A stretch of DNA of 64,000 nucleotides from an uncultured Clostridia bacterium (GTDB lineage Bacteria; Bacillota; Clostridia; Christensenellales; Pumilibacteraceae), in the NCBI GenBank assembly GCA_944372345.1, contig CALVYT010000008.1:10690-74689 (forward strand), in the 5' to 3' direction. Positions 2,477 through 50,204 of this stretch are shown piece after piece. The notes below the pieces were generated by a model, which did not search any database, had not been told where the DNA came from, and was given only the letters and a program-made list of their open reading frames with translations. Numbering within the stretch: position 1 is the stretch's first letter; every line of letters begins with the position of its first letter. A program made the translations under genes and the position numbers.

Positions 2477-2525
2477 ACGAATACAAACGCCGAACGCAAA
2501 TTTTGCATAAGCCTGCCGCCGTCCC

Positions 2526-2554
2526 TTGATTTTACGGCGCGCACGGTGTATAAT
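2526..2554 (+). promoter_or_regulatory. candidate sigma-A promoter for the phosphatase/kinase pair
   Basis: TTGATT (2526-2531), 17-nt spacer, TATAAT (2549-2554). Confidence 0.55.
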
Positions 2555-2597
2555 ATAAGAACGGTATCGTCCGACAAGCGGACGGAGGGACGGCATT

Positions 2598-3341
2598 ATG
2601 ACGCTGACTTATTCGGAGATATGCTCCCCGGGGGGCAGAAAGAGCAATCAGGACAACGCGGGGTGGCGCGCGGACGGCGGCAAGGCGTGTTTCGTCGTGT
2701 GCGACGGACTGGGCGCGTATTCGGGCAGCGGCATAGCCAGCCGCATCTGCACCGAAGTTATGTGCGACGGGTTTATGAACGGCGGTTCTCCGACGGCGGA
2801 ATGCATAACCGCGCTCGCCGAACGCGCGCACAGACGCATAATCGAGGAAAAAACGGAAAACGGACATATCGACGGAGCGTGCACGACGCTCGCGGGAGTA
2901 TTCACGGACGGCTCGCGCACCGTCATAGCCCACATAGGCGACTCCCGCGTCTACCGATTCGCCGCGGGCAGGATACGCTTCTGCACCGCCGACCATTCCG
3001 TCGCGCAGATGGACGTCGAAAGCGGCAGGATAAGCCGCCGCGACCTGCGCTACCACCGCGACCAGAACAAGCTGACGCGCGTGCTCGGCGGACGGCGGTA
3101 TCTCCCGCCCGACATAACCGAATCGGACGCGCCGCTCGCCGCGGGCGACGCGTTCCTGCTCTGCACCGACGGGTTCTGGGAATACGTCGACGAAAACGAA
3201 ATGGAATACGCTCTCACTCTCGGTCTGCCGGGAGAAGGGATGCTCGGATATATGGAAAAGAAACTGCTCTCGCGCGCGAGCGGAGAACACGACAACTATA
3301 CCGCGCTGCTCGTGCGCGTCATCGGGGAGGACGACCAATGA
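2598..3341 (+). CDS. PP2C-family Ser/Thr protein phosphatase
   Basis: 247 aa. RKSNQDN...FVVCDGLGAY...GDSRVY...LLCTDGFWE are PP2C metal-binding motifs. The stop overlaps the kinase start (ATGA). Confidence 0.88.
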   Translation: MTLTYSEICSPGGRKSNQDNAGWRADGGKACFVVCDGLGAYSGSGIASRICTEVMCDGFMNGGSPTAECITALAERAHRRIIEEKTENGHIDGACTTLAGVFTDGSRTVIAHIGDSRVYRFAAGRIRFCTADHSVAQMDVESGRISRRDLRYHRDQNKLTRVLGGRRYLPPDITESDAPLAAGDAFLLCTDGFWEYVDENEMEYALTLGLPGEGMLGYMEKKLLSRASGEHDNYTALLVRVIGEDDQ

Positions 3342-4270
3342 CGGAAAATCTTTGCCCCCGCTGCTTCGCGCCGCTCTCGCCGCGCGGCGTCTGCCCCGAA
3401 TGCGGCAGGCGCGCCTCGCGACCTCCCCGCCCCGATCCCCGCGCGCTGCCCGAAGGCACGCTCCTGAAAAACAGATACGTCCTCGGCGGAACGATCGGCG
3501 AAGGCGGGTTCGGCGTCACCTATTTCGCGTTCGATACGATGAGATCGGCGCGCGTCGCCGTCAAGGAATACTTCCCGTTTACCGTCGCCGCCCGCGTCGG
3601 GAAAGCCGTCGAAGCGCGCTCCCCCGAACTGCGCGGGAGGTTCTCGCTCGGCAAGAAGAGGTTCACCGACGAGGCGAAAAATATGGCGGCGATAAAGGAC
3701 CTTAAAGACATACCGACCGCTCTCGACTATTTCAGCGAGAACGGCACGGCGTATATAGTTATGGAATACATAGAAGGCGAAACGCTGAAAGACCGCGTTT
3801 TCAAAAAAGGCAAGATGAAAGAGGGCGACGCGCTCGCCCTGCTCCGCCCCGTATTCTCCTCCCTCGCGCTGATACACGACGCGGGGCTGCTCCACCGCGA
3901 CGTTTCCGCAGACAATATCATCCTCGGTAAAGGCTGCGCCAAACTCATCGACTTCGGCTCGTCCGTGTCCGCGGGCAGGCAGCAGTCGCTCGAACTCAAA
4001 CGGCGGTACGCCCCGCCCGAGCAGTACGAAAAGGACGGCTCGGTCGACAGACGCGCGGACGTATACGCCGCGGGCGCGACGCTGTATTACTGCGTGACGG
4101 GCTGTCTGCCGCCCGAAGCGACGGACCGGCTGCGGCAGGACCGCATATCCTTTCCCGCACGGCTCTCCCCGCATATGCGCGCCGCCCTTACCAAAGCCCT
4201 CTCTCTGAAAAAAGAGGACAGATATGCGGATATGCGCGAAATGCTCGCCGATCTGGACGGGATAAACTGA
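3338..4270 (+). CDS. Hanks-type Ser/Thr protein kinase with an N-terminal zinc ribbon; no TM or PASTA region
   Basis: MTENLCPRCFAPLSPRGVCPECG (CxxC-x10-CxxC), then GEGGFGVTY, VAVKEY, HRDVSADN, DFG and APPE. The start is in frame within the longer track ORF and overlaps the phosphatase stop. Confidence 0.88.
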   Translation: MTENLCPRCFAPLSPRGVCPECGRRASRPPRPDPRALPEGTLLKNRYVLGGTIGEGGFGVTYFAFDTMRSARVAVKEYFPFTVAARVGKAVEARSPELRGRFSLGKKRFTDEAKNMAAIKDLKDIPTALDYFSENGTAYIVMEYIEGETLKDRVFKKGKMKEGDALALLRPVFSSLALIHDAGLLHRDVSADNIILGKGCAKLIDFGSSVSAGRQQSLELKRRYAPPEQYEKDGSVDRRADVYAAGATLYYCVTGCLPPEATDRLRQDRISFPARLSPHMRAALTKALSLKKEDRYADMREMLADLDGIN

Positions 4271-4283
4271 CGCCCGCAAACGC

Positions 4284-4312
4284 AAAAAGCGTTCCGCACG
4301 GAACGCTTTTTT
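4284..4312. terminator. bidirectional intrinsic terminator between convergent genes
   Basis: AAAAA-GCGTTCC-GCAC-GGAACGC-TTTTTT. Confidence 0.75.
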
Positions 4313-4337
4313 ATATGTCCGTTTTGACAGCCGCGGC

Positions 4338-6032
4338 TCATACCGAAAGCGCGGCGTACAGTCTGTCGGCGTCTGCGGTCGTTCTGCCGCGGACGATAAA
4401 GAACAGCAGCACGAACACCGCGGCGAGCGCGGCGGACGCTATCGTGAGCCCCCAGCCGCCCAGCCCCGCGAAATACAGCCCAAGCCCAAGCCCGAGGATA
4501 ACTCCTCCCGCTCCGAACGCGGCGAGTATACCGAGCAGCGTAGGGATCACCGTGGCGGGATTGCTCTTGACGGCGTCGCGCGGGGTGACCCAATCGAGGC
4601 GCGGCTTTTTCAGATCGCGGCGCAGATAGAACTCCGTAAAGCACAGCACGCCAGCGGCGAGCATAACGAGGGTGCTTATTATCGCGGCGACGTCCACCGT
4701 TTTGAGCGCGACCGCTCCCGAAACAGCCATTCCCGCCACGCTCACGGCACCGGACACGAGGGGCGGCAGCACGGATACCACGCGCTTTGCGTCGAGCTGG
4801 ACGGTATACGGCACGGGAATGAGTTTGCTGTATGCGAACGTGACGCCCTCGCGGGTCACCGCCGTCAGCGCGGTGAAGTTCAGCGCGCCCGTCATCATCA
4901 AAGCCATCATTGCAGCTATCGCCCACATAACGACGAACATAAGCCCGGATATGCCCGCTTCCTCCACGCCTTCGCCGTTGCCCATTATCATCATAACGAC
5001 GCACATCGCGGGAGAGAGGACCACGCCCGCGAGGCATTGGAACGCAAACGAGGAATTGCGTATGAGCATCCTCGTTTCCTTTTTCACGAGAGCGCGCAGC
5101 ACTCCGGAACGCTCGTAACGCCCCGCTTTGTTCCTGCTCCGCGGCGGATTTTCCGACTGTCGCATGACCGCGCGGCGGTACATAAGCAACGCGAGCGGGA
5201 CGAGAGCCGCCGAAAGCGCGGCGACCGTCCCGAGAAACACGATGAGGTTTATTGCCGCCGAGAGGGCGGGAGCTTCTGCGAACCCGCCGCCGTTTGTGCC
5301 GAAGCACGCAAGGCAGTAGATCGGATATATAACATACATTGAGCGGCGCACCGCGGCGCGCAGCGTTTCGACGGCGGCGCCGATATCCTCGGCCCCGCCC
5401 GACGCCGGGGCGCGGCCGCCAAGATTGACGACTACTATATACACCGTCATAAACGCGGCGAACAGCACGAGCAGGAGCACGCTCGCGACCGCGCCGCGGT
5501 TACGGAAGAACCCGGCTATGAACGTCAGCGGCACGGCGATAAGCGCGCCGAGCAACAGCGCGCAAAGCGGCACGAGCGCGACCGCGATGAGCGTCATTAT
5601 ATAAAACGCCGCGCCCTGCGCCGTCGCTATGCCGAGCACTATCGCGCCCGGGAAAGCGAGCACCGCTCCGACGGCGGCTTCCTCGACATATATGACCGTC
5701 AGCTTCGCCGCGAACACCGTACCCGGTCTGACCGGGAGGCTCATTAAAAACTCGTTGTCGCGGGAGAAATACATATACGAAAACACCGCGACCGTGCCGA
5801 ACACGAGCGTGAGCATAAAATCCGCGGCCAGAAGCAGCGCGGCGATCTCCGTCGTGAGATCATAATCCCTAACCGCGGCGCCGAGAAATCCCAGCGCGAC
5901 GGCTATGCACGCCGAAAGTATGGCGGCGAGCACGATGAAGCCGACGAGTGCGGACGGCGAATTTTTCGCGCCCGCGCGCTTTCTGAATGTCATGCTAAGC
6001 AGCGTCCGCGTTATGACTTTCCACCCGTACAT
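4338..6032 (-). CDS. ABC-2/ABC-exporter-type polytopic membrane permease
   Basis: 564 aa, many hydrophobic spans. It starts 1 nt after the stop of the upstream ABC ATPase. Confidence 0.75.
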   Translation of the reverse strand: MYGWKVITRTLLSMTFRKRAGAKNSPSALVGFIVLAAILSACIAVALGFLGAAVRDYDLTTEIAALLLAADFMLTLVFGTVAVFSYMYFSRDNEFLMSLPVRPGTVFAAKLTVIYVEEAAVGAVLAFPGAIVLGIATAQGAAFYIMTLIAVALVPLCALLLGALIAVPLTFIAGFFRNRGAVASVLLLVLFAAFMTVYIVVVNLGGRAPASGGAEDIGAAVETLRAAVRRSMYVIYPIYCLACFGTNGGGFAEAPALSAAINLIVFLGTVAALSAALVPLALLMYRRAVMRQSENPPRSRNKAGRYERSGVLRALVKKETRMLIRNSSFAFQCLAGVVLSPAMCVVMMIMGNGEGVEEAGISGLMFVVMWAIAAMMALMMTGALNFTALTAVTREGVTFAYSKLIPVPYTVQLDAKRVVSVLPPLVSGAVSVAGMAVSGAVALKTVDVAAIISTLVMLAAGVLCFTEFYLRRDLKKPRLDWVTPRDAVKSNPATVIPTLLGILAAFGAGGVILGLGLGLYFAGLGGWGLTIASAALAAVFVLLFFIVRGRTTADADRLYAALSV

Positions 6033-6033
6033 A

Positions 6034-6771
6034 TCAGTCGCTCCCGTTTCCCGCGACGGAGAGGAATATGTCTTCGAGCGACTCGTCGCCCTTTGCGGCT
6101 TTGATATCGTCGAGATCGCCCGCGACGAGCAGTCTGCCCTTGCTTATTATGCCTATGCGGTCGCATATCCGCTCCGCCATATCAAGGACGTGCGTCGAGA
6201 AAAACACGACGTTTCCCCTGTCCGCGTGGACGCGCATTATGTCCTTGAATTCACGCACCGACTGCGGGTCCAGCCCCACCATCGGCTCGTCGAGAACGAG
6301 CACTTTCGGGTCGTGGACGAGCGCGCCGACTATGGCTATCTTCTGCTTCATCCCGTGGCTGTACGTCCCTATCTGGTTGTCGTATGCGCCGCCGAGCGAA
6401 AAGCGCGAAACGAGTTCGTCGGCGCGCGCCCGACGCTCTTCGACGGATACGCCGTATACGTCCGCCATAAAGTCGACGAACTCCCTGCCCGTCAGCTTTT
6501 CAAACAGCACTCCGCTGTCCGTGACGTAACCTATGTTCTTCTTCGCGCCCGCGGGGTCCCGTTCGACGTCCGCGCCGCATACCGAAATACTGCCTTCGTC
6601 CGCGGACAGTATCCCCGTCATCATCTTGATGGTCGTCGTCTTCCCCGCCCCGTTTGGACCGAGAAACCCGAATATCTCGCCGCCCGAAAGGGTCAGCGAC
6701 AGTCCGTCCACCGCCTTGACGGGGCTTTTCGCGTACGTTTTGGATACGCGGTCAAATACGACTTCGTTCAA
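6034..6771 (-). CDS. ABC transporter ATP-binding protein
   Basis: GPNGAGKTTT (Walker A), signature-like YSHGMKQK, LVLDEP (Walker B). The start is set at the TTG at 6771, preceded by AGGAGG. The Arg-rich N-terminal extension in the track looks non-coding. Confidence 0.88.
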   Translation of the reverse strand: MNEVVFDRVSKTYAKSPVKAVDGLSLTLSGGEIFGFLGPNGAGKTTTIKMMTGILSADEGSISVCGADVERDPAGAKKNIGYVTDSGVLFEKLTGREFVDFMADVYGVSVEERRARADELVSRFSLGGAYDNQIGTYSHGMKQKIAIVGALVHDPKVLVLDEPMVGLDPQSVREFKDIMRVHADRGNVVFFSTHVLDMAERICDRIGIISKGRLLVAGDLDDIKAAKGDESLEDIFLSVAGNGSD

Positions 6772-6863
6772 ATATACCTCCTGTATGCCGCGCTGCGTTA
6801 CGCCCGCAGCCGTATCGATAGTCCGAAAACCAAATCTCGCGCTTACGGCAAAGCCGCGCCGCG

Positions 6864-7571
6864 TCAGGCGCGCGCCGCCACGTCGAGCGCAAGCACCATC
6901 ATATCGCGCAGCCCGCATTCGCGCTCTGCCGCAGAGAGCATATCCCCGCCGAGAGCGTAGTCGCTTATCGCGCACACGGCGAGCGCTTCTTTGCCGAACG
7001 CCCGCGCCACGGCATAGAGCATCGCGGCTTCCATTTCCACGGCGTCCGCTCCGCGCGCCTTCCACATTCTGCCGTACTCCGCGCCCGAATAGAACACGTC
7101 GCTCGTATGCAGGCTGCCGCCCACCGCGCGGAAACCGCGTTCATCCGCCGATCTTCGGGCTATGCCCGCCAGCCTCACGGAAGCGGGTATACGCTCGAAA
7201 GGTTCGGCGGAAAAGAACTCCACCGAGCGGGAATCGGTCGACGCGGTATCCCCTATCACGATGTCGCGCAGTTTAAGCGCGTCCGAATACGCGCCCGCGC
7301 TGCCCGCGCGGATAATGCACCCGACGCCGAACTTAGTGAACAGCTCGTAGGCGTAAATGCCTATGGACGGCATTCCCATACCGCTCGCCATCACGGATAT
7401 GCGGGCGCCGTAATAGTAACCCGTATACCCCTGCGCGCCGCGGACGTCGTTGACGAGCCGCGCGTCCGTGAGATAGGCCTCCGCAATCAGCCGCGACCGC
7501 ATAGGATCTCCCGGCATAACGACCACGGGGGCGAAATCTCCCGGCTCCGCCGCTATGTGCTGCGTTGCCAT
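6864..7571 (-). CDS. deoD: purine nucleoside phosphorylase, DeoD type
   Basis: MATQHIAAEPGDFAPVVVMPGDPMRS...GMGMPS is DeoD-like. The ATG at 7571 follows AAGGAGG. Confidence 0.88.
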   Translation of the reverse strand: MATQHIAAEPGDFAPVVVMPGDPMRSRLIAEAYLTDARLVNDVRGAQGYTGYYYGARISVMASGMGMPSIGIYAYELFTKFGVGCIIRAGSAGAYSDALKLRDIVIGDTASTDSRSVEFFSAEPFERIPASVRLAGIARRSADERGFRAVGGSLHTSDVFYSGAEYGRMWKARGADAVEMEAAMLYAVARAFGKEALAVCAISDYALGGDMLSAAERECGLRDMMVLALDVAARA

Positions 7572-7653
7572 CTTCGTTTTCCTCCTTATCATCGGGCTTT
7601 AAGGCTTCCCGCGTCCGCGCCCGAACGGACAGCGAGGCTCCGTCTGCGGCGGG

Positions 7654-8514
7654 TCAGCGCCCGCCCGCCTGCTTTTTCTTCTTCTGCGGCGCGGACTTGA
7701 GCTTATAAGAAGCAAGCCCTGTCAGCGGCGCGGCTTTCTTGCCGTCGCGCCGCAGCAGTTCCACCGCGAGATCCATATATGCCAGCGAGCCTTTGCTCGT
7801 CGGGTAATACTGCACGACGGGCAGACCGTAGCTGGGCGCTTCGCCGAGCGTGACGTTGCGCGGTATGCGCGTTTTGAACACGCTCTTGCCGAACCATTTG
7901 AGTATCTCCTGCGCCACCTGATTGGACAGGTTGCTGCGCCCGTCGTACATCGTCATCACGACGCCCTCTATTTCCAGCGCGTGGTTGAGGTGTTTTTTGA
8001 CGAGCTTGACGGTATTCATCAGCTGCGCTATGCCTTCGAGCGAGAAAAAGTCGCCGGGCATGGGAATGAGCACCGAATCGGCAGCCGTCAGCGCGTTCAC
8101 GGAAAACACGTTGAGCGACGGCGGGCAGTCGATGAATATGTAGTCGTAATCGTCGCGCACGGGCGCGAGCGCGCGGCGCAGCACCTTTTCGCGGGATTCT
8201 TCGAGATTCATCAGCTCCACGTCCGCGCCGGCGAACTCTATATTCGCGGGGACGACTTTGAGGTTGGGAACGGTCGTGCCGCAAACGGTGTCGCGCACGG
8301 TCGCATCCCCCATCATCACGTCGTATATCGTGCGTTTGAGATTGTCCTTGTTCTCGCCCACTATTCCGAAACCGCTCGTGGTGTTGCCCTGCGGGTCGAT
8401 ATCCACTACGAGCACTTTATATCCCATCAGCGCAACGAACGCGCTGAGGTTTATGCAGGTGGTCGTCTTGCCGACGCCGCCCTTCTGATTGGAGATCGCT
8501 ATTACCTTAGCCAC
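7654..8514 (-). CDS. ParA/Soj-family ATPase (orphan; no parB seen) with a basic C-terminal tail
   Basis: NQKGGVGKTTT is the deviant Walker A, and DIDPQGN follows. At 286 aa the tail reads KLKSAPQKKKKQAGGR. Confidence 0.88.
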   Translation of the reverse strand: MAKVIAISNQKGGVGKTTTCINLSAFVALMGYKVLVVDIDPQGNTTSGFGIVGENKDNLKRTIYDVMMGDATVRDTVCGTTVPNLKVVPANIEFAGADVELMNLEESREKVLRRALAPVRDDYDYIFIDCPPSLNVFSVNALTAADSVLIPMPGDFFSLEGIAQLMNTVKLVKKHLNHALEIEGVVMTMYDGRSNLSNQVAQEILKWFGKSVFKTRIPRNVTLGEAPSYGLPVVQYYPTSKGSLAYMDLAVELLRRDGKKAAPLTGLASYKLKSAPQKKKKQAGGR

Positions 8515-8778
8515 GATATTCCTCCTCGTACGGTTTAATAGTAACAGAACGCGCCCGATATGTCAATAACTTACGCGGTCTTGCACCGAAATTTTCCTTA
8601 TTATGACCTCGCGGGCGGAAACGGACGAATGCGGTCGGCGGCGCGGAAAAGCCGAAAACCGCGCGCTTTCCCGCGTTTTTTATGAAATTTTTACATTGTT
8701 TTTACTTAAATTTCATAATGCCGCGCTATACTTCTTTCAAAAGACGGCGGCGGTCGTGCCGCACAGGGAGAAACGAAT

Positions 8779-44122: not shown

Positions 44123-45700
44123 TTATTTTGCGCGGGCGATCATATCCTTATAAAGCTCTATATACTTCTTCGCGCTTGCCGTCCACGACCAGTCCTCCGT
44201 CATCGCGCGGTGCATTATCGCCGCCCAGCGGGGTCTGTCGCGGTATGCTTCGAGCGCGCGCAGAGTCGTATCGGCAAGAGCTTCGCCGGTATGCACCGGG
44301 CAGACGAAACCGTTGCCGTCCTCGCCTTCGCGCACCGTGTCGTTGAGCCCGCCGACGTTGCGCACGACGGGGATCGTGCCGTAGCGCATAGCCATCATCT
44401 GACCGAGCCCGCACGGCTCGCTGTGCGAGGGCATCATATATATGTCGCCCGCCGCGAACATCTTCTGGCTGAGATCCTTATTGAACGCTATGACGGCGCG
44501 CGCCTTGTCGGGATACGCCTCCTGCAAGTCGCGGAAGAATCCCTCGTATTCGGGTTCGCCCGTACCGAGTATGACAAACTGCACGTCCTCTTTGATTATC
44601 CTCGGCATTGCCTGTTTGAGTATATCCAGCCCTTTGTGCCACGCAAGGCGGGAGACCATCGTTATCATCGGGACGTCCTCGCGCTCGGGCAGTCCGAGGA
44701 GCTTCTGCAAGCCCGTTTTATTGAGCGTTTTCTTTTCGGGGCACGCCGCGTCGTAATGCTCGAACAGCGCGGGCGCGGTCGCGGGATTATACACGACGGT
44801 GTCTATGCCGTTGAGTATGCCCGTCATCTTATGCTCGAAACGACGGCACGCGTCCTGCAAGCCGCACGCGTGCTCGGGACTTTTGAGTTCCTCGGCATAG
44901 GTGCGAGAAACGGTGGAAATACGATCGGAATACGCCATAGCGCCGAACAGGAGATTGACGCAGCCGCCCCATTCGAGGGTAAAATACTGGTTGCCCGAGA
45001 TCCCGAACACCTCCTGCAAAAGATTGCCGTCGTACTTGCCCTGATACTCGATATTGTGTATCGTGATGAGGTTCTGTATGTAGCTGTAAGCATTGCCCTC
45101 GGCGTACATATAATACAGCTTGTAATATATCGGCACGAGAGCGGTGTGCCAGTCGTTGGAATGGATCACGTCTGGTTTGAAGTCCATATACGGCATAAGT
45201 TCGAGCACCGCGCGGCAGAAGAACGCGTAACGCTCCGCGTCGTCGTAATATCCGTATATCCCGCCGCGCTTGAAGTAATACTCGTTGTCGATGAAGTAGT
45301 ACGTCACGCCGCGGTAGACGTATCTGAACAGCCCCGCGTACTGGCTGCGCCACGCGACGGGCACGTTGATGTGACAGACGAACTCGAAGTCCCTGCGGTA
45401 CTGCTCGCCCACGCATTCGTAGAGCGGAGTCACGACCGCCATTTCCGCCGTACCGAGCTCGTTCACCGCTATGGGCAGAGAGCTCGCCACTTCGCCCAGT
45501 CCGCCCGTCTGCGAGAACGGATTGCACTCGCCCGCCACGAGCAGTATGCGCGGCTTCTTTATGTCGTTGCCCGCGGGCGACAGCCGCGGCTTTCTCGGCG
45601 CGCGGGTCGTAGTCGTTTTTGCCGCGGGCTTCGCGGTTTTCGCCGCCGTCTGCGCCGACGACTTCTTCTCCCCGGCTGCCGTCGTTTTCTTCGTTGCCAT
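44123..45700 (-). CDS. glgA: glycogen synthase with a roughly 50-aa Lys/Ala/Thr-rich N-terminal extension
   Basis: ILLVAGECNPFSQTGGLGEV is the GlgA KTGGL-type motif. 525 aa against the usual roughly 480. Confidence 0.92.
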   Translation of the reverse strand: MATKKTTAAGEKKSSAQTAAKTAKPAAKTTTTRAPRKPRLSPAGNDIKKPRILLVAGECNPFSQTGGLGEVASSLPIAVNELGTAEMAVVTPLYECVGEQYRRDFEFVCHINVPVAWRSQYAGLFRYVYRGVTYYFIDNEYYFKRGGIYGYYDDAERYAFFCRAVLELMPYMDFKPDVIHSNDWHTALVPIYYKLYYMYAEGNAYSYIQNLITIHNIEYQGKYDGNLLQEVFGISGNQYFTLEWGGCVNLLFGAMAYSDRISTVSRTYAEELKSPEHACGLQDACRRFEHKMTGILNGIDTVVYNPATAPALFEHYDAACPEKKTLNKTGLQKLLGLPEREDVPMITMVSRLAWHKGLDILKQAMPRIIKEDVQFVILGTGEPEYEGFFRDLQEAYPDKARAVIAFNKDLSQKMFAAGDIYMMPSHSEPCGLGQMMAMRYGTIPVVRNVGGLNDTVREGEDGNGFVCPVHTGEALADTTLRALEAYRDRPRWAAIMHRAMTEDWSWTASAKKYIELYKDMIARAK

Positions 45701-45701
45701 A

Positions 45702-47675
45702 TTATTTATCCTCCTTATCCGCCGCTGCGGCGGCTTTCTTCGTTTTCTTCGCCGCAGTCTTGCGCGCGGCGGATCCGGACGCGGACTTCGCGCTCTTTTT
45801 CGCCTTTTTCGCCGGTTTCGGCTCGCAGGGCGGAGCGAGGAATATGTATCCGCTCATATTTTCTATATCCATAACAAGGCTGTCCGTCTTGTTGCGGTTG
45901 GGCACTTCTTCGGACTCGATCACGACGGGCTCCATATCCCAGCCGTAATAGGACGTCTTTATGCGACGCGTATACGTTCCCGGGCTGACCGGCAGACGAT
46001 AGCCCTTCCAGTCGCAGGGCGCGAAGTTGAGCACGACGAGCGCGCGGTTACCCGCGCGGTCGCGGCGTTCGTAAATGAACACGTTGGCGTCCGCGTCGTC
46101 GGCGACGAGCCACTCGAAACCGTCCCAGCTGTTCTCTATCTCATAGAGCGCGGGGGTCGTGCGGTATATCCAGTTGAGCTCCTTGACGAACCTCTGCAAG
46201 CCCTGGTGCTTGGGGAACTCGCAGAGCAGCCAGTCTATGTCGCGCTGCCAGTTCCACTCCGACCACTGACCGAGCTCGCAGCCCATAAACAGCAGTTTCT
46301 TGCCGGGGTGCGTGAACATATACAGCAGATAGTTCTGCACGCCCGCGAATTTAAGGTCGTAATCGCCCGGCATCTTGTTTATCAGCGAGCCTTTACCGTA
46401 TACCACTTCATCGTGAGAAATAGGCAGCACGTAGTTCTCCGAGAACGCGTACGCCATAGAGAACGTCATCAGATTATGCTTGTAGTGGCGGAAATACGGG
46501 TCGGCTTTGACGTATTGCAGAGTGTCGTTCATCCACCCCATGTTCCACTTGAAGTTGAAGCCCAGTCCGCCCCAGTCCGCGGGCTTGGTGACCATCGGCC
46601 ACGCCGTGGACTCTTCCGCTATCATCAGCGCGTTGGGGAAATGCCCGAACACCGCGGTGTTCAGCGTGCGGAAGAAGTCGATCGCTTCGAGGTTCTCCCT
46701 GCCGCCGTACCTGTTGGGCTCCCACTCGCTCCTGCCGTAGTCGAGATAGAGCATGCTCGCGACGGCGTCCACGCGCAATCCGTCTATGTGGTATTTGTCG
46801 AACCACATCATCGCGTTGGATACGAGGAAGCTCTTGACCTCGTTCCTGCCGTAGTCGAAGCACATTGTGCCCCACTCCTTATGCTCGGCGCGCAGCGGGT
46901 GCGACGGCTCGTAGCAAGGCTCGCCGTCGAACATATACAGCCCGTGCTCGTCCTTGGGGAAATGCCCCGGCACCCAGTCGAGAATGACCGCTATTCCGTT
47001 CTCGTGGCACTTGTTGACGAGATACGCGAAGTCCTCGGGGCGGCCGTAGCGCGACGTGGGCGCGTAATACCCCGTCACCTGATAACCCCAGCTCCCGTCG
47101 TAGGGATGCTCCGCTATGCCCATCAGTTCGAGATGGGTGAAGTTCATATACTTCATATAGTATACGATCTCGTCCGCGAACTTGCGGTAGTCGTAATTGT
47201 TGCCGTCAGGGTATTTGCGCCACGAAGCGATGTTGCATTCGTAAATGCTTATCGGCGAGGAATACGGGTCCGTCTTCGCCCGCTTTTCCAGCCACTCTTC
47301 GTCGTTCCACCAGAAGTTGTCGAGCGCGATGACCTTGCTCGCCGTGCTGCCCCGCGTTTCGTCGAAGAACGCGTAAGGGTCAGCCTTTTCCACTTCCGTG
47401 CCGTTCCTGCCGCGGACGCAGTATTTGTACATCTGGTATTCCTCGACCCCGTCGATGATACCCTCGAAAATGCCGCCGTCCGTTATACGGAACATATAGT
47501 TCGCCGTGCGATCCCAGTAGTTGAAATCGCCGACGACGGATACCGACGTAGCGTGAGGCGCCCAAACGCGGAACACAGCCCGCTTTGTCTTTCTGTCGTA
47601 GTGGCAGCCGAGGTATTCGTATGCCGTCTGCAACGTGCCTGCGTGGAAATAGTATTGATATTCGCTGTCTGTCAT
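45702..47675 (-). CDS. glgB: 1,4-alpha-glucan branching enzyme with a Lys/Ala-rich C-terminal tail
   Basis: GH13 motifs (DWVPGHF, GLRVDAV, EESTAW, SHDEV). The tail reads PKPAKKAKKSAKSASGSAARKTAAKKTKKAAAAADKEDK. Confidence 0.93.
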   Translation of the reverse strand: MTDSEYQYYFHAGTLQTAYEYLGCHYDRKTKRAVFRVWAPHATSVSVVGDFNYWDRTANYMFRITDGGIFEGIIDGVEEYQMYKYCVRGRNGTEVEKADPYAFFDETRGSTASKVIALDNFWWNDEEWLEKRAKTDPYSSPISIYECNIASWRKYPDGNNYDYRKFADEIVYYMKYMNFTHLELMGIAEHPYDGSWGYQVTGYYAPTSRYGRPEDFAYLVNKCHENGIAVILDWVPGHFPKDEHGLYMFDGEPCYEPSHPLRAEHKEWGTMCFDYGRNEVKSFLVSNAMMWFDKYHIDGLRVDAVASMLYLDYGRSEWEPNRYGGRENLEAIDFFRTLNTAVFGHFPNALMIAEESTAWPMVTKPADWGGLGFNFKWNMGWMNDTLQYVKADPYFRHYKHNLMTFSMAYAFSENYVLPISHDEVVYGKGSLINKMPGDYDLKFAGVQNYLLYMFTHPGKKLLFMGCELGQWSEWNWQRDIDWLLCEFPKHQGLQRFVKELNWIYRTTPALYEIENSWDGFEWLVADDADANVFIYERRDRAGNRALVVLNFAPCDWKGYRLPVSPGTYTRRIKTSYYGWDMEPVVIESEEVPNRNKTDSLVMDIENMSGYIFLAPPCEPKPAKKAKKSAKSASGSAARKTAAKKTKKAAAAADKEDK

Positions 47676-47780
47676 TATCTTCCCCCTTTAAGGTCTTTGC
47701 TCTGTATTATGCGGACAAGCGCCCGCTTAAAAACATTATAACATAAAAGCCCGCGCATTTCAAGGGGGCTCGGTAAAATT

Positions 47781-48749
47781 TTACATTAAATTTTCGGAAT
47801 TTTTCTCAATTTCCGACGGCGTGCGCCCCTCGTCCGGCAATTCCGTGCGGAAAAGCACGGTGTAACCCGCTCTGTCGCCCTCCGCTTCCCCCTTGACGAC
47901 GAACGGCGGCTCCCCGGTCTTTACGAGAAGAGCGGTATATCCGCCGCCTTTACCGACGACGGGAAAGCCCCCCTCGGCAAGCCGCGTATCGTCCGCACGG
48001 ACGGCGAACGCTCTGCCTCCGTCCGTCACGATATTTACGGGGCGTTCGGAAACGAACTTCGCGACGTACGCCGAACGCGGATCGACGGCGACGTCCTCCG
48101 CCGCGCCGCTGCGCACTATCCGGCCGCCGCGCATCACCGCGCAGCAATCTCCCGCATATGCGAGATCGCCGCCGTTCGGCGTCGCGATAACAGCCGCGCA
48201 GTCGCCTATCGTTTCCCTGACGCGCAAAAGCAGCGACCGCGCTTCCGCGCGCTCGTCCGCGGTCATATCTCTGTACGGATCGTAAAACAGCGCGATCCTC
48301 GCCCGCCGCGTCAGCAGCCGCGCCAGCTCCGCTTTCATCCGCTCGGGCGGCGTCAGCGACGCCGCCGAGCGGCGCAGCAGTCCGCTTATGCCCAGCGCTT
48401 CCGCCGCTTCCTCCGCCCTGCGTTTCGCCTCTTTCCCCGAAACCCGGCGCAGGCGCAGTCCGTAAGTCAGGTTGCGCTCCACGCTGCCGCCGAGCGGCAG
48501 CTTTTTCCCGCGCGACAAAAACGCGTCCCGTTCGCGCGGTGAAAGCGAAAGCGCGTCCCTGCCGTCGAAAAGCAGTTCGCCGGAGTCCGCGTTCAGCAGT
48601 CCGCCGACTATGCCGAGCACCGTGCGTTTGCCCGACCCCGGCTCGCCCGCGATACCGAATACGCCGTCCTCCACGTTCAGCGAAACGTCCTCCGCGCCGA
48701 GCGTGTCGAGATCGTATTTCTTCGTGATGTTTTTCAGTTCGAGTTTCAT
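47781..48749 (-). CDS. MalK/UgpC-like ABC ATPase homolog with degenerate catalytic motifs (probable pseudo-ATPase)
   Basis: Collinear with MalK, including the C-terminal regulatory domain. Walker A is GEPGSGKRT, the signature is LTPPE, Walker B is LFYDP, and the H-loop is ATPN. Confidence 0.75.
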   Translation of the reverse strand: MKLELKNITKKYDLDTLGAEDVSLNVEDGVFGIAGEPGSGKRTVLGIVGGLLNADSGELLFDGRDALSLSPRERDAFLSRGKKLPLGGSVERNLTYGLRLRRVSGKEAKRRAEEAAEALGISGLLRRSAASLTPPERMKAELARLLTRRARIALFYDPYRDMTADERAEARSLLLRVRETIGDCAAVIATPNGGDLAYAGDCCAVMRGGRIVRSGAAEDVAVDPRSAYVAKFVSERPVNIVTDGGRAFAVRADDTRLAEGGFPVVGKGGGYTALLVKTGEPPFVVKGEAEGDRAGYTVLFRTELPDEGRTPSEIEKNSENLM

Positions 48750-48955
48750 ATGCCGTTGCCGCCGTGCGTCGGCCGACCTCGCCGATCGGGGTTATCCGAA
48801 CCGGACAGAAAATTCATAAAACCGACGGTGTTCATGCCGTTCTCATCCGCTACCGGACGAATACCTCTTCCGGTGACGATTTCTCCGAAAGGATCTCCTG
48901 CCTTATGAAAATGCCTTTCCTGTCGCAATGTCGCAATTATTCTGAGATTATATTC

Positions 48956-48984
48956 ATTATAACCGATGACATTCCGTATGTCAA
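48956..48984 (-). promoter_or_regulatory. consensus sigma-A promoter for the malK-like/glgB/glgA operon, giving a roughly 200-nt leader
   Basis: Reverse strand: TTGACA (48979-48984), 17 nt, TATAAT (48956-48961). Confidence 0.6.
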
Positions 48985-49030
48985 ACGTCTGTCCGCAGGT
49001 CCGGAAACGGCTATATCGCAAAACCCGCGA

Positions 49031-49140
49031 AAAACGCTTGCATATTCGCGCGGGCGGGTATATTATATTTTTGTATGCAATTTTCGGTAAAGGCGGTCAA
49101 ACGCTTGCATAATTATGCGCGCGGGTGTATAATATGCAAT
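49031..49140 (+). promoter_or_regulatory. tandemly duplicated promoter/operator module upstream of argC
   Basis: P1 is TTGCAT (49038), 17 nt, TATTAT (49061). P2 is TTGCAT (49105), 17 nt, TATAAT (49128). The palindrome GCATAATTATGC (49107-49118) overlaps the P2 -35, and TATGCAAT follows each -10. Confidence 0.5.
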
Positions 49141-49187
49141 ATAGCGCGGTAAAAGCGCGGCGTAAGGATAAAGAGGCGGAAACGGAT

Positions 49188-50204
49188 ATGATAAAAGCCG
49201 GGATAATAGGCGCAAACGGATATACGGGGTTCGAGCTGATGCGGCTGCTCGCGCAGCACCCCGACGCGGAGGTCGCGTTCGCGGCGTCGCGCAGTCTTGC
49301 GGGAAAGCGGGTCGCGGAAACGTACCCCACTCTCGCGGGGGCTTACGGGGATATGACGTATTCGGACGTCGATCTCGCGGAAGCGGCAAAGTGCGACGTA
49401 GTGTTCGCGTGCCTGCCGCACGGCGAAAGCGCGGAGATATGCGGCAAACTCGTCGACGCGGGAACGCGGGTGATCGACCTTTCGGCGGACTACCGCTACG
49501 ACGACGTTTCGCTGTATGAGAGCACATACAAAAAGGAGCACCCGAGAAAGGATCTGCTCGCCGAAGCGGTATACGGACTGCCCGAGTTTGACCGCAAAGC
49601 GATCGCGGGGGCGAGGCTGATCGGCAATCCCGGCTGCTACGTCACGGCGAGCGTGCTGGCGATAAAGCCCCTCGTTTCGGCAGGAGTCATCGACCCGCGC
49701 ACCGTCATAATAGACGCCAAGAGCGGCGTGAGCGGCGCGGGGCGCAAAGCGGACGTGGCGTATAACGCGAACGAAGTGGAGGGCAGCTTCAAGGCGTATG
49801 CCGTCGCGACGCACCGCCACACGACGGAGATAGAGGAAAAGAGCGGGGCGGTCGTCACGTTCGTCCCCCACCTTCTCCCGATCAAGCGCGGCATACTCGC
49901 GACGATATACTGCGATCTTATGCCGAACAAAACGGAAAATGACGCGAAAGCGGCGTACTCCGTCTATGACGGCGAGCCGTTCGTGCATTTCATCGGAAAC
50001 GACCTGCCCGAGATCAAGTCGGCGGCGGGCAGCAACTGCTGTTACATAGGGCTGCGCCGCGAAGAAAAGACTAACAGGCTGATCGTCGTATCGTGCATCG
50101 ATAATCTGATCAAAGGCGCGAGCGGTCAGGCGGTGCAGAATATGAACATAATGTTCGGACTGCCCGAGACGGAGGGGCTTCCCCTCGTCGGATTTCATTT
50201 GTGA
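49188..50204 (+). CDS. argC: N-acetyl-gamma-glutamyl-phosphate reductase
   Basis: MIKAGIIGANGYTGFELMRLL...GNPGCY (catalytic Cys). Confidence 0.93.
   Translation: MIKAGIIGANGYTGFELMRLLAQHPDAEVAFAASRSLAGKRVAETYPTLAGAYGDMTYSDVDLAEAAKCDVVFACLPHGESAEICGKLVDAGTRVIDLSADYRYDDVSLYESTYKKEHPRKDLLAEAVYGLPEFDRKAIAGARLIGNPGCYVTASVLAIKPLVSAGVIDPRTVIIDAKSGVSGAGRKADVAYNANEVEGSFKAYAVATHRHTTEIEEKSGAVVTFVPHLLPIKRGILATIYCDLMPNKTENDAKAAYSVYDGEPFVHFIGNDLPEIKSAAGSNCCYIGLRREEKTNRLIVVSCIDNLIKGASGQAVQNMNIMFGLPETEGLPLVGFHL

What the first reader, a model, noticed from the sequence alone, without database searches (positions are those of the whole stretch)
47781..48749. MalK-like ABC ATPase with every catalytic motif degenerate, as first gene of the glgB-glgA operon
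The 322-aa protein is collinear with MalK/UgpC-type importer ATPases, including the C-terminal regulatory (TOBE-like) domain. All nucleotide-hydrolysis motifs are altered:
- Walker A: GEPGSGKRT (R in place of the Mg-binding S/T)
- Q-loop: Gln missing (AFLSR against VFQSY)
- signature: LTPPE instead of LSGGQ
- Walker B: LFYDP instead of hhhhDE (catalytic Glu lost)
- D-loop: RDMT
- H-switch: ATPN instead of THD

No permease or binding-protein gene is adjacent. Instead it sits directly upstream of glgB and glgA on the same strand, behind a consensus promoter. In E. coli, MalK moonlights as a regulator by sequestering MalT. A catalytically dead MalK paralog fixed in a glycogen operon suggests a purely regulatory or scaffolding role in glycogen metabolism, which I have not seen described.
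Basis: partly seen in the sequence, partly recalled or inferred. Interest (0 to 1): 0.6.

Follow-up and report, generated by a model that had tools for sequence, protein, structure and literature searches.

The report
Dead sugar-transporter ATPase beside glycogen genes
This gene is a catalytically dead leftover of a sugar-importer ATPase, kept intact by selection in a gut Clostridia genus that has lost the matching sugar transporters; it sits next to the glycogen genes but is probably not part of their operon.

Summary
Window 48749..47781 (minus strand) encodes a 322-aa MalK/MsmX-type ABC ATPase homologue. Walker A, Q-loop, signature, Walker B Glu, D-loop and H-loop are all substituted.

The operon reading is not supported:
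- glgB has its own promoter (TTGAAA-17-TGTTATAAT, 47763..47735), conserved in all 12 orthologous loci aligned.
- Two orthologues carry a terminator after the ABC gene.
- In G058 an atp operon separates the ABC gene from glgB (probably also G064). Both keep the glgB promoter.

The gene is confined to one genus (includes Ca. Protoclostridium; 14 of 16 genomes, plus a 210-aa stump in a 15th). By its place beside the arg operon, it is the positional orthologue of the family's canonical orphan "long MsmX" ATPase.

The genera with degenerate forms (g1, g7, g17) show almost no MalG-type sugar permease (0/16, 1/5, 0/3). Genera with the canonical form nearly always have one.

The gene evolves about 10 times faster than glgB and glgA, yet omega is about 0.12, far below 1, and every full-length copy is intact. 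A clade-specific invariant loop, YDLxTxG, has appeared.

Best reading: a retained pseudo-ATPase with a non-transport, partner-binding role. A glycogen-specific role is possible but unsupported. The scan has noted similar dead MsmX-like orphans in other genomes.

The parts
47781..48749 (-). Degenerate MalK/MsmX-type ABC ATPase homologue (pseudo-ATPase), 322 aa plus stop codon.
   Evidence: It is intact in all full-length orthologues.
48696..48716 (-). aa 12-18, YDLDTLG. This is the A-loop Tyr plus the clade-specific invariant loop YDLxTxG.
   Evidence: D13, T16 and G18 are invariant and L14 is in 13 of 14 genus orthologues. The canonical relatives have different residues here. The codons vary at synonymous sites, so the constraint is on the protein.
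48621..48647 (-). Walker A remnant GEPGSGKRT (aa 35-43).
   Evidence: The Lys is replaced by Met or Leu in three sister orthologues.
48480..48524 (-). Former Q-loop region (aa 76-90); the Gln is lost.
   Evidence: Column entropy rises from 0.15 in canonical relatives to 1.58.
48342..48356 (-). Signature remnant LTPPE (aa 132-136), in place of LSGGQ.
48261..48290 (-). Walker B remnant LFYDP (aa 154-158) and D-loop remnant RDMT (aa 160-163).
48174..48185 (-). H-loop remnant ATPN (aa 189-192); His becomes Pro.
47784..48035 (-). Short all-beta C-terminal domain (about aa 239-305) followed by a disordered tail. It is a truncated counterpart of the MalK regulatory domain.
   Evidence: Secondary structure and pLDDT. 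Full-length Foldseek alignments to MalK, CysA and GlcV. phmmer alignment to 2it1 reaches aa 291. No Pfam TOBE hit.
48956..48984 (-). The gene's own promoter, TTGACA-17-TATAAT (12 of 12 matches).
48750..48955 (-). About 200-nt leader between that promoter and the ATG. It is absent from the orthologous loci, and the Shine-Dalgarno sequence is weak.
   Evidence: upstream alignment. No Rfam match.
47735..47763 (-). Separate glgB promoter, TTGAAA-17-(TG)TTATAAT. It begins 18 nt after the ABC stop codon.
   Evidence: It is conserved in all 12 orthologous spacers. It is also found upstream of glgB in G058 and G064, where glgB does not follow the ABC gene.
45702..47675 (-). glgB (branching enzyme). 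The conserved core is aa 1-617 (45825-47675).
44123..45700 (-). glgA (glycogen synthase). It is conserved from about aa 40-49 onward.
49125..50204 (+). argC, divergently transcribed. It is the ancestral neighbour of this ABC gene.
   Evidence: TIGR01850 scores 410.7 bits against a cut-off of 233.6. Synteny.

Best explanation
**What it is.** The gene is the degenerate positional orthologue of the orphan 'multitask' MsmX/MsmK-type ATPase. In related genera that ATPase energises CUT1 sugar ABC importers.

**How it arose (inferred).** In this genus the MalFG-type permeases are gone. The ATPase lost selection on catalysis and on coupling to a permease. It lost the Q-loop Gln, the signature and the H-loop His first. 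In the window's subclade it later lost the Walker A Lys or Ser and the Walker B Glu. It also lost about half its length at the C-terminus.

**What it can no longer do (inferred from the motifs and established ABC mechanism).** It cannot hydrolyse ATP or form the ATP-sandwich dimer. It has no permease to dock on.

**Why it persists.** It is still kept by purifying selection as a folded NBD plus a small beta domain. It carries a new invariant loop, YDLxTxG, beside the old adenine pocket. It most likely works as a soluble pseudo-ATPase that binds a partner protein. This would be a transport-independent role of the kind known for E. coli MalK with MalT and S. suis MsmK with FtsZ.

**Transcription.** It has its own promoter. 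glgBA, immediately downstream, has a separate conserved promoter, although read-through in this genome is not excluded.

**Shown:** homology, motif loss, restricted distribution, positional orthology, permease absence, selection and promoter conservation. **Inferred:** lack of ATPase activity, the order of losses, and the partner-binding role. The partner is unknown.
For: **Fold and motif loss:**

**Graded decay across the clade**
- Earlier-branching genus members keep GxxGxGK[ST] and D-E or D-D, but lack Q, LSGGQ and H.
- The window's subclade has also lost the Walker A Lys or Ser and the Walker B Glu.

**Restricted distribution**
- Strong profile hits occur only in genus g1: 14 of 16 genomes at 161-535 bits, against a canonical baseline of about 125-145 bits.
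- Only about 8 representatives among 1.84 billion proteins score above that baseline.
- The genus copies form a single clade with 100/100 support and long branches.

**Positional orthology**
- The ABC gene is divergent from arg genes in g5, g8 and g13, where it is canonical.
- It is also divergent from arg genes in g7, g17 and g1, where it is degenerate.

**Canonical ATPase and permeases**
- A canonical long MsmX at 58-65% identity is present in most genera. It is absent from 15 of 16 g1 genomes, and g7 copies are only 38-43% identical.
- The own genome has only amino-acid, taurine-type and Pst permeases.
- The MalG model finds nothing in the own genome at E 1e-3.
- Across the family, the MalG model hits g1 0/16, g7 1/5 and g17 0/3. 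It hits g2 30/31, g5 3/3, g8 6/6, g9 9/9 and g13 14/15.

**Selection**
- All full-length orthologues are open.
- Pairwise dN/dS is 0.19-0.53, against 0.014-0.09 for glgB and glgA.
- Maximum-likelihood omega is 0.117. Fixing omega at 1 costs 548 lnL units.
- Over the same 7 taxa, omega is 0.104 for this gene, 0.019 for glgB and 0.037 for glgA.
- A neutral simulation keeps the ORF open in only 0.1% of runs at 0.45 substitutions per site.
- Clusters at 90% identity hold 25-43 intact member sequences each.
- Clade-specific invariant residues are D13, T16 and G18, with L14 nearly so. Their codons vary at synonymous sites.

**Separate transcription units:**

**Precedent for moonlighting:** PMC8546688. 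MalK-MalT is from established knowledge.
Against:
- **Signs of dispensability.** Motif decay continues within the genus. G061 holds only a 210-aa stump in which the clade motif has eroded. No copy was found in G063, but that genome is only 64% complete and its glgB contig ends inside glgB.
- **Weak translation signals.** The window's Shine-Dalgarno sequence is weak, and several orthologues appear leaderless.
- **Imperfect link with permease loss.** Genus g3 shows no MalG-type hit, yet keeps a canonical short MalK-like ATPase beside malQ.
- **Incomplete genomes.** The genomes are MAGs, 64-95% complete, so absences are statistical.
- **Saturated dS.** Synonymous sites are saturated, so omega is imprecise: 0.1 by maximum likelihood and 0.2-0.5 by the counting method.
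- **Shallow structure model.** Four of five AlphaFold models were of low confidence.
Confidence: 0.55

Rival explanations
1. **Glycogen-specific regulator or scaffold.** The dead ATPase is co-expressed with glgBA. It binds GlgB, GlgA or the GlgC/D enzyme to tune glycogen synthesis.
For: - The order ABC then glgB then glgA is kept in 12 loci of the genus.
- The order also holds in G061, where argC was not found upstream of the ABC stump in the 12-kb stretch searched.
- The window has no terminator between the ABC stop codon and the glgB promoter, so read-through is possible.
- Canonical relatives also lie beside alpha-glucan genes: a MalK-like gene sits next to malQ in g3.
Against: - glgB has its own conserved promoter in every locus.
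- L061 and L063 have terminators after the ABC gene.
- In G058 an atp operon separates the two genes, and probably also in G064. The glgB promoter stays with glgB in both.
- The gene's position is inherited from an arg-adjacent ancestor that had no glgBA beside it.
- Synteny within a single genus is expected by descent alone.
- The protein changes about 10 times faster than the nearly invariant GlgB and GlgA.
- glgC and glgD lie on another contig.
Confidence: 0.12
2. **Functionless relic.** The gene is no longer needed after the transporters were lost. It is decaying slowly, and the remaining constraint only reflects selection against a misfolding or toxic product.
For: - Motifs are lost progressively.
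- The C-terminus is truncated from about 640-730 aa to about 320 aa.
- G061 holds only a 210-aa stump.
- Omega is 3-5 times that of the neighbouring genes by maximum likelihood, and dN is about 10 times higher.
- Translation signals are weak or variable.
Against: - Omega is 0.12, far below 1, with an lnL difference of 548.
- 14 full-length copies are open, with only in-frame indels, at dS of about 1 or more.
- A neutral ORF survives in only 0.1% of simulations.
- New clade-specific invariant residues have appeared.
Confidence: 0.2
3. **Still a nucleotide-dependent ABC subunit.** It binds ATP without hydrolysing it, or hydrolyses it weakly. It pairs with another NBD, such as the orphan PotA-like ATPase on contig C5, or with one of the remaining importers, as a degenerate or inhibitory subunit.
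For: - The A-loop Tyr, the Walker A glycines and Thr43, and the Walker B Asp are invariant.
- Earlier-branching orthologues keep a full Walker A and D-E.
- The genome holds a second orphan canonical ATPase.
Against: - In a heterodimer both composite sites would be crippled, because this protein's Walker A, Walker B and H-loop side and its signature side are both degenerate.
- Three sister species lack the Walker A Lys.
- The Q-loop that couples to permease EAA helices is gone in the whole clade.
Confidence: 0.08

Closest known systems
MsmX (Bacillus subtilis, PDB 6YIR) and MsmK (Streptococcus): orphan multitask ATPases of CUT1 sugar ABC importers
   Same: - It has the same fold, an NBD plus a C-terminal beta domain.
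- It is encoded away from any permease.
- It is the positional orthologue of the canonical long MsmX-like gene of the same bacterial family.
- MsmK has a published transport-independent role with FtsZ (PMC8546688).
   Different: - All catalytic motifs are degenerate.
- The C-terminal domain is cut to about 80 aa.
- The genome has no CUT1 permeases to energise.
- It evolves much faster.
E. coli MalK (MalFGK2), which also sequesters the activator MalT and binds EIIA-Glc
   Same: - It is homologous along its length (66.9 bits; TM about 0.73).
- MalK offers a model for a regulatory, partner-binding role of the NBD and its regulatory domain (established knowledge).
   Different: - It scores 74 bits against the MalK equivalog cut-off of 568.
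- It has no MalFG.
- Its regulatory domain is about half the size.
- No MalT-like partner has been identified.
Degenerate nucleotide-binding sites of heterodimeric ABC transporters (for example TM287/288, CFTR NBD1, TAP1)
   Same: Substitutions at the Walker B Glu, the H-loop His and the signature abolish hydrolysis while the fold is retained (established knowledge).
   Different: Those proteins keep one consensus site and remain part of a transporter. Here both faces of the NBD are degenerate, the protein stands alone, and no permease exists for it.
Other 'dead MsmX-like' orphan ATPases noted by this scan in other genomes (for example e1-2512919, Anaerobacillus, beside glucokinase)
   Same: It shows the same pattern: an orphan MalK/MsmX-like protein with catalytic motifs lost, an intact ORF and a narrow taxonomic range (AI notes, not checked here).
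   Different: They are not close relatives. Only about 8 representative proteins cluster with this one, so these would be independent degenerations. Their gene neighbours differ.

Membership tests
ABC transporter nucleotide-binding domain (Pfam PF00005 fold) | Significant match to the ABC_tran profile and a RecA-like plus helical subdomain fold. | tested here: met
   45.8 bits against a cut-off of 25. The model matches MalK, CysA and GlcV at TM 0.7-0.79.
Catalytically competent ABC ATPase | Walker A motif GxxGxGK[ST]. | tested here: not met
   The motif reads GEPGSGKRT, with Arg at the Ser/Thr position. Sister species have Met or Leu in place of Lys.
Catalytically competent ABC ATPase | Q-loop Gln, LSGGQ signature, Walker B Asp-Glu and H-loop His. 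| tested here: not met
   Gln is absent, the signature is LTPPE, Walker B is LFYDP (Glu becomes Pro) and the H-loop is ATPN (His becomes Pro). The activity itself was not measured.
MalK/UgpC/MsmX-type CUT1 importer ATPase (NCBIfam equivalogs and subfamilies) | Score above the curated model cut-off. | tested here: not met
   UgpC 104.9 against 432; MalK 74.2 against 568.
MalK/UgpC/MsmX-type CUT1 importer ATPase | C-terminal regulatory domain (OB_MalK/TOBE_2). | tested here: inconclusive
   There is no Pfam hit. A beta domain of about 70 aa is predicted and aligns structurally and by phmmer with the first part of the MalK regulatory domain.
MalK/UgpC/MsmX-type CUT1 importer ATPase | Partner MalF/MalG-type permeases present in the genome. 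| tested here: not met
   The 6 BPD_transp_1 matches are amino-acid, taurine-type and Pst permeases. The MalG model gives 0 hits in the own genome at 95% completeness. It gives 0 hits in 16 genomes of the genus.
MalK/UgpC/MsmX-type CUT1 importer ATPase | Orthology with the canonical ATPase of related genera. | tested here: met
   It occupies the same arg-adjacent position as the canonical long MsmX in g5, g8 and g13. It is closest by sequence to this group.
glgBA operon member | Co-transcription with glgB and glgA from a shared promoter. | tested here: inconclusive
   The genes share a strand with a 105-nt gap and no terminator in this genome. However, glgB has its own conserved promoter. Terminators follow the ABC gene in 2 orthologues, and an atp operon intervenes in G058. 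No RNA data were available.
Pseudogene | Frameshifts, stop codons or neutral evolution. | tested here: not met
   14 full-length ORFs are intact. Omega is 0.117, and omega of 1 is rejected. The neutral expectation is 0.1% of ORFs remaining open. One truncated 210-aa copy exists in G061.

The most novel reading that the evidence does not exclude
A stand-alone ABC nucleotide-binding domain has been converted into a pseudoenzyme. After its transporters were lost, the former MsmX survived because of a moonlighting function. It now uses the new invariant YDLxTxG loop at the old nucleotide pocket to bind and regulate a cytoplasmic partner. That partner could be the adjacent glycogen enzymes or a cell-division or regulatory protein. 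The same conversion may have happened repeatedly in Bacillota, as suggested by g7 and g17 here and by other dead MsmX-like orphans noted by the scan.
Probability: 0.2. Interest if true: 0.65.

Novelty: new variant of a known kind. Interest (0 to 1): 0.42.

Why it matters
- **A natural series of decay.** Within one bacterial family, the same positional gene is fully canonical where sugar permeases exist. Where they are gone it decays stepwise: Q-loop, signature and H-loop first, then Walker A and B, then the C-terminal domains.
- **A hidden second role.** The gene is still kept by selection after losing catalysis. This suggests that MsmX-type 'multitask' ATPases have a transport-independent function that can outlive the transporter. 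That would add stand-alone dead NBDs to the list of bacterial pseudoenzymes.
- **Annotation practice.** These genes are currently labelled 'ABC transporter ATP-binding protein', which would wrongly imply sugar ABC import in these genomes.
- **A caution on operons.** A same-strand gene ahead of glgBA is not thereby part of the glycogen operon.

Tried and rejected
- **Complex prediction.** Complex prediction with GlgB (617 aa, 14-row alignment) and the pseudo-ATPase (aa 1-307, 16-row alignment) returned 'no answer', with a median score of 0.17 against a mark of 0.32. This is not evidence either way. GlgA and FtsZ were not tried because only one job is allowed.
- **Rfam.** A search of 47500-49300 found nothing near a gathering score, so no known riboswitch or leader lies in the 200-nt 5' region.
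- **Literature.** Searches for a degenerate MalK or MsmX linked to glycogen, and for orphan non-transport ABC ATPases, found no direct precedent.
- **Neighbour misnamed.** I first called the upstream neighbour asd on the Pfam result. NCBIfam shows it is argC.
- **Strict rule rejected.** I considered 'no MalG-type permease always gives a degenerate ATPase'. I rejected it as a strict rule because g3 lacks MalG hits yet keeps a canonical short MalK-like gene beside malQ.
- **Origin of the degenerate forms.** The tree leaves open whether g1, g7 and g17 degenerated once or independently. g7 sits in a polytomy with canonical forms, and g17 was not placed.
- **DNA- or RNA-level constraint.** This explanation for the invariant N-terminal block was rejected, because the codons vary at synonymous sites.
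Full report
**1. Observation**

The ORF lies on the minus strand, 48749..47781, and encodes 322 aa. It matches Pfam ABC_tran at 45.8 bits. Its best solved relatives are the importer ATPases that carry a C-terminal regulatory domain: AlgS, PH0203 MalK, MsmX, SugC, CysA and E. coli MalK, at E 3e-28 to 2e-17.

- Walker A GEPGSGKRT (aa 35-43).
- No Q-loop Gln.
- LTPPE for LSGGQ (aa 132-136).
- LFYDP for hhhhDE (aa 154-158).
- RDMT for SxLD.
- ATPN for THD (aa 189-192).

NCBIfam scores are a quarter or less of the equivalog cut-offs. An AlphaFold model from seven orthologues reached pLDDT 85.6 in its best model; the other four were poor. That model gives an NBD followed by an all-beta domain of about 70 aa. 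Foldseek places it with MalK, CysA and GlcV at TM 0.7-0.79. The C-terminal domain is about half the canonical size and has no Pfam TOBE/OB_MalK hit.

Downstream on the same strand are glgB and glgA. Upstream and divergent is argC, not asd. adhE converges on glgA.

**2. Distribution and orthologues**

A word-indexed search of 5.8 billion proteins found only seven close clusters, at 45-99% identity. After those comes a gap down to ordinary UgpC- and MalK-type proteins. An exhaustive profile search of 1.84 billion representatives found only about eight proteins above the canonical baseline.

In the GTDB family of the window's genome, strong hits are confined to its own genus, g1. It has hits in 14 of 16 genomes, and one member is titled Ca. 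Protoclostridium stercorigallinarum. A 15th genome, G061, has a 210-aa truncated copy directly upstream of glgB. The 16th, G063, is 64% complete and its glgB contig ends inside glgB.

All genus copies form one clade with 100/100 support and long branches.

**3. Graded decay**

Alignments show a series:
- Earlier-branching genus members keep Walker A GxxGxGK[ST] and Walker B D-E or D-D. They have lost the Q-loop Gln, the signature and the H-loop His.
- Two species (L061, L063) keep Walker A and DEP.
- The window's subclade has further lost the Walker A Lys (Met or Leu in three species) or Ser (Arg or Cys), and the Walker B Glu.

Two other genera of the family carry independently recognisable degenerate forms that retain long C-terminal TOBE domains:
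- g7: 632-649 aa, signature LTAGE, LSAGE, LPLGD or LSLID, H-loop lost. Two genomes have also lost the Walker A Lys and the Walker B Glu.
- g17: 503 aa, signature ITELQ, H-loop lost.

Other long forms in the family, at 635-734 aa, are fully canonical.

**4. Positional orthology and loss of partners**

The ABC gene is divergently adjacent to arg genes in two groups:
- g5, g8 and g13, where it is canonical.
- g7, g17 and g1, where it is degenerate.

The gene in the window therefore sits at an inherited position. It was not recruited into a glycogen locus.

A canonical long MsmX at 58-65% identity to the g2 query is present in most genera. It is absent at E 1e-60 or better from 15 of 16 g1 genomes, and g7 has only copies at 38-43% identity.

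The window's genome is 1.69 Mb and 95% complete. It has only six BPD_transp_1 matches, classified as amino-acid, taurine-type and PstC/PstA permeases. The MalG model finds nothing in it at E 1e-3.

Across the family, the MalG model gives these hits:

| Genus | Genomes with a MalG hit |
|---|---|
| g1 | 0/16 |
| g7 | 1/5 |
| g17 | 0/3 |
| g2 | 30/31 |
| g5 | 3/3 |
| g8 | 6/6 |
| g9 | 9/9 |
| g10 | 4/4 |
| g13 | 14/15 |

One caveat applies. Genus g3 is 0/10, yet four of its genomes examined keep a canonical short MalK-like gene. In the one whose context was read (G040), that gene lies beside malQ. The link is therefore a strong association for the arg-adjacent orthologue, not a universal rule.

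**5. Selection**

All full-length orthologues are open, start at the same Met, and differ only by in-frame indels. The neighbouring genes are 78-97% identical in protein, while this gene is 29-56% identical.

| Measure | This gene | glgB | glgA |
|---|---|---|---|
| Pairwise dN/dS (counting method) | 0.19-0.53 | 0.014-0.045 | 0.02-0.09 |
| ML omega, same 7 taxa | 0.104 | 0.019 | 0.037 |

- Pairwise pS is similar and saturating across the three genes.
- Maximum-likelihood GY94 over 14 sequences gives omega 0.117. Fixing omega at 1 lowers lnL from -13089.3 to -13637.6.
- Neutral substitution at 0.45 per site leaves the ORF open in only 0.1% of simulations.

The gene is therefore under relaxed but real purifying selection.

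Most invariant positions are the structural Gly, Pro and Arg residues shared with canonical NBDs. Four positions next to the A-loop Tyr12 are the exception. D13, T16 and G18 are invariant in the clade, and L14 is present in 13 of 14. All four differ in canonical relatives. Their codons vary synonymously.

**6. Transcription units**

The gene has its own perfect promoter at 48984..48956, followed by a leader of about 200 nt that orthologues lack. No Rfam family matches this region.

Eighteen nucleotides after its stop codon begins a second promoter, TTGAAA-17-TGTTATAAT (47763..47735). A strong glgB Shine-Dalgarno sequence follows. This promoter is conserved in all 12 orthologous spacers.

Further evidence for separate units:
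- In L061 and L063, a GC-rich hairpin with a T-run precedes the glgB promoter.
- In G058, the ATP synthase operon lies between the ABC gene and glgB. glgB keeps the same promoter behind a terminator.
- In G064, glgB lies on another contig behind the same promoter. The sequence after the ABC gene resembles that of G058.

Hence glgBA is its own unit. glgC and a glgD-like gene lie on another contig.

**7. Interpretation**

The best-supported account is a relic MsmX-type ATPase. It lost its transport job when the genus lost its CUT1 permeases, and it then shed its catalytic motifs and its C-terminal extension. It is nevertheless retained as a pseudo-ATPase, most likely for a partner-binding role. 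E. coli MalK with MalT (established knowledge) and S. suis MsmK with FtsZ (PMC8546688) show that such roles exist.

The glycogen-regulator idea stays possible but rests only on synteny within a single genus. The pure-relic idea is contradicted by omega, by ORF integrity and by the new invariant loop, although the G061 stump shows that the gene can be lost.

Earlier notes of this scan describe similar dead MsmX-like orphans in other genomes. I did not check those notes. Given, they would be independent cases rather than relatives.

**8. Verdict**

The operon and glycogen interpretation is only partly supported. This is a new, genus-restricted degenerate variant of a known ATPase family. It is moderately interesting as a clear natural series of pseudoenzyme formation.

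Noticed in passing
window 47676-47734 (minus strand); same region in L060, L002, L004: The glgB 5' UTR, between its promoter and its Shine-Dalgarno sequence, contains a short GC-rich hairpin (GCGGG...CCCGC type). The hairpin recurs with sequence changes in the closest orthologous loci. It may be a regulatory stem-loop in the glgB leader.
   Followed up: no
window 45702-45824 and 45557-45700 (minus strand): The conserved GlgB core ends at aa 617, and GlgA conservation begins at about aa 40-49. The roughly 240 nt between them stay open in both ORFs but are not conserved in sequence among orthologues, which have GlgB tails of 34-46 aa.
   Followed up: partly
L052 (G058:C23) 2497-8631, with glgB at G058:C23:9213: In one genus member, the ATP synthase operon (a, b, delta-alpha fusion, gamma and beta subunits) lies between the pseudo-ATPase gene and glgB. 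A second member, G064, has a G058-like sequence after its ABC gene, and its glgB lies on another contig.
   Followed up: partly
L002 and L004 (two contigs of MAG CO.A89.metabat-bins.230 = G071): The same bin holds two complete copies of the argC / ABC / glgB / glgA locus. They differ at dS of about 0.6-1.5. The bin most likely mixes two species.
   Followed up: no
L009 (G000:C5:75522-76529): A second orphan ABC ATPase is present. It is PotA/FbpC-like with canonical motifs and sits on a very long branch. It lies next to mnmG and has no adjacent permease.
   Followed up: partly
L039, L044-L046, L075-L079 (other genera of the family): The family's canonical MsmX-like ATPase is unusually long, at 635-734 aa. 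It carries about 300 extra C-terminal residues. The degenerate g7 form shows two TOBE_2 stretches there. The function of this extension is unknown.
   Followed up: partly
L002, L004, L049-L051 upstream of the ABC start codon: In several orthologues the -10 box (TATAAT or TAAACT) ends only 7-10 nt before the ATG, and no Shine-Dalgarno sequence is present. This suggests leaderless mRNAs. The window instead has a 200-nt leader.
   Followed up: no
L094 (G040:C1) 4811-7295: In genus g3, a canonical short MalK-like ATPase lies directly upstream of a GH77 4-alpha-glucanotransferase (malQ). No MalG-type permease was detected in that genus at E 1e-10.
   Followed up: partly
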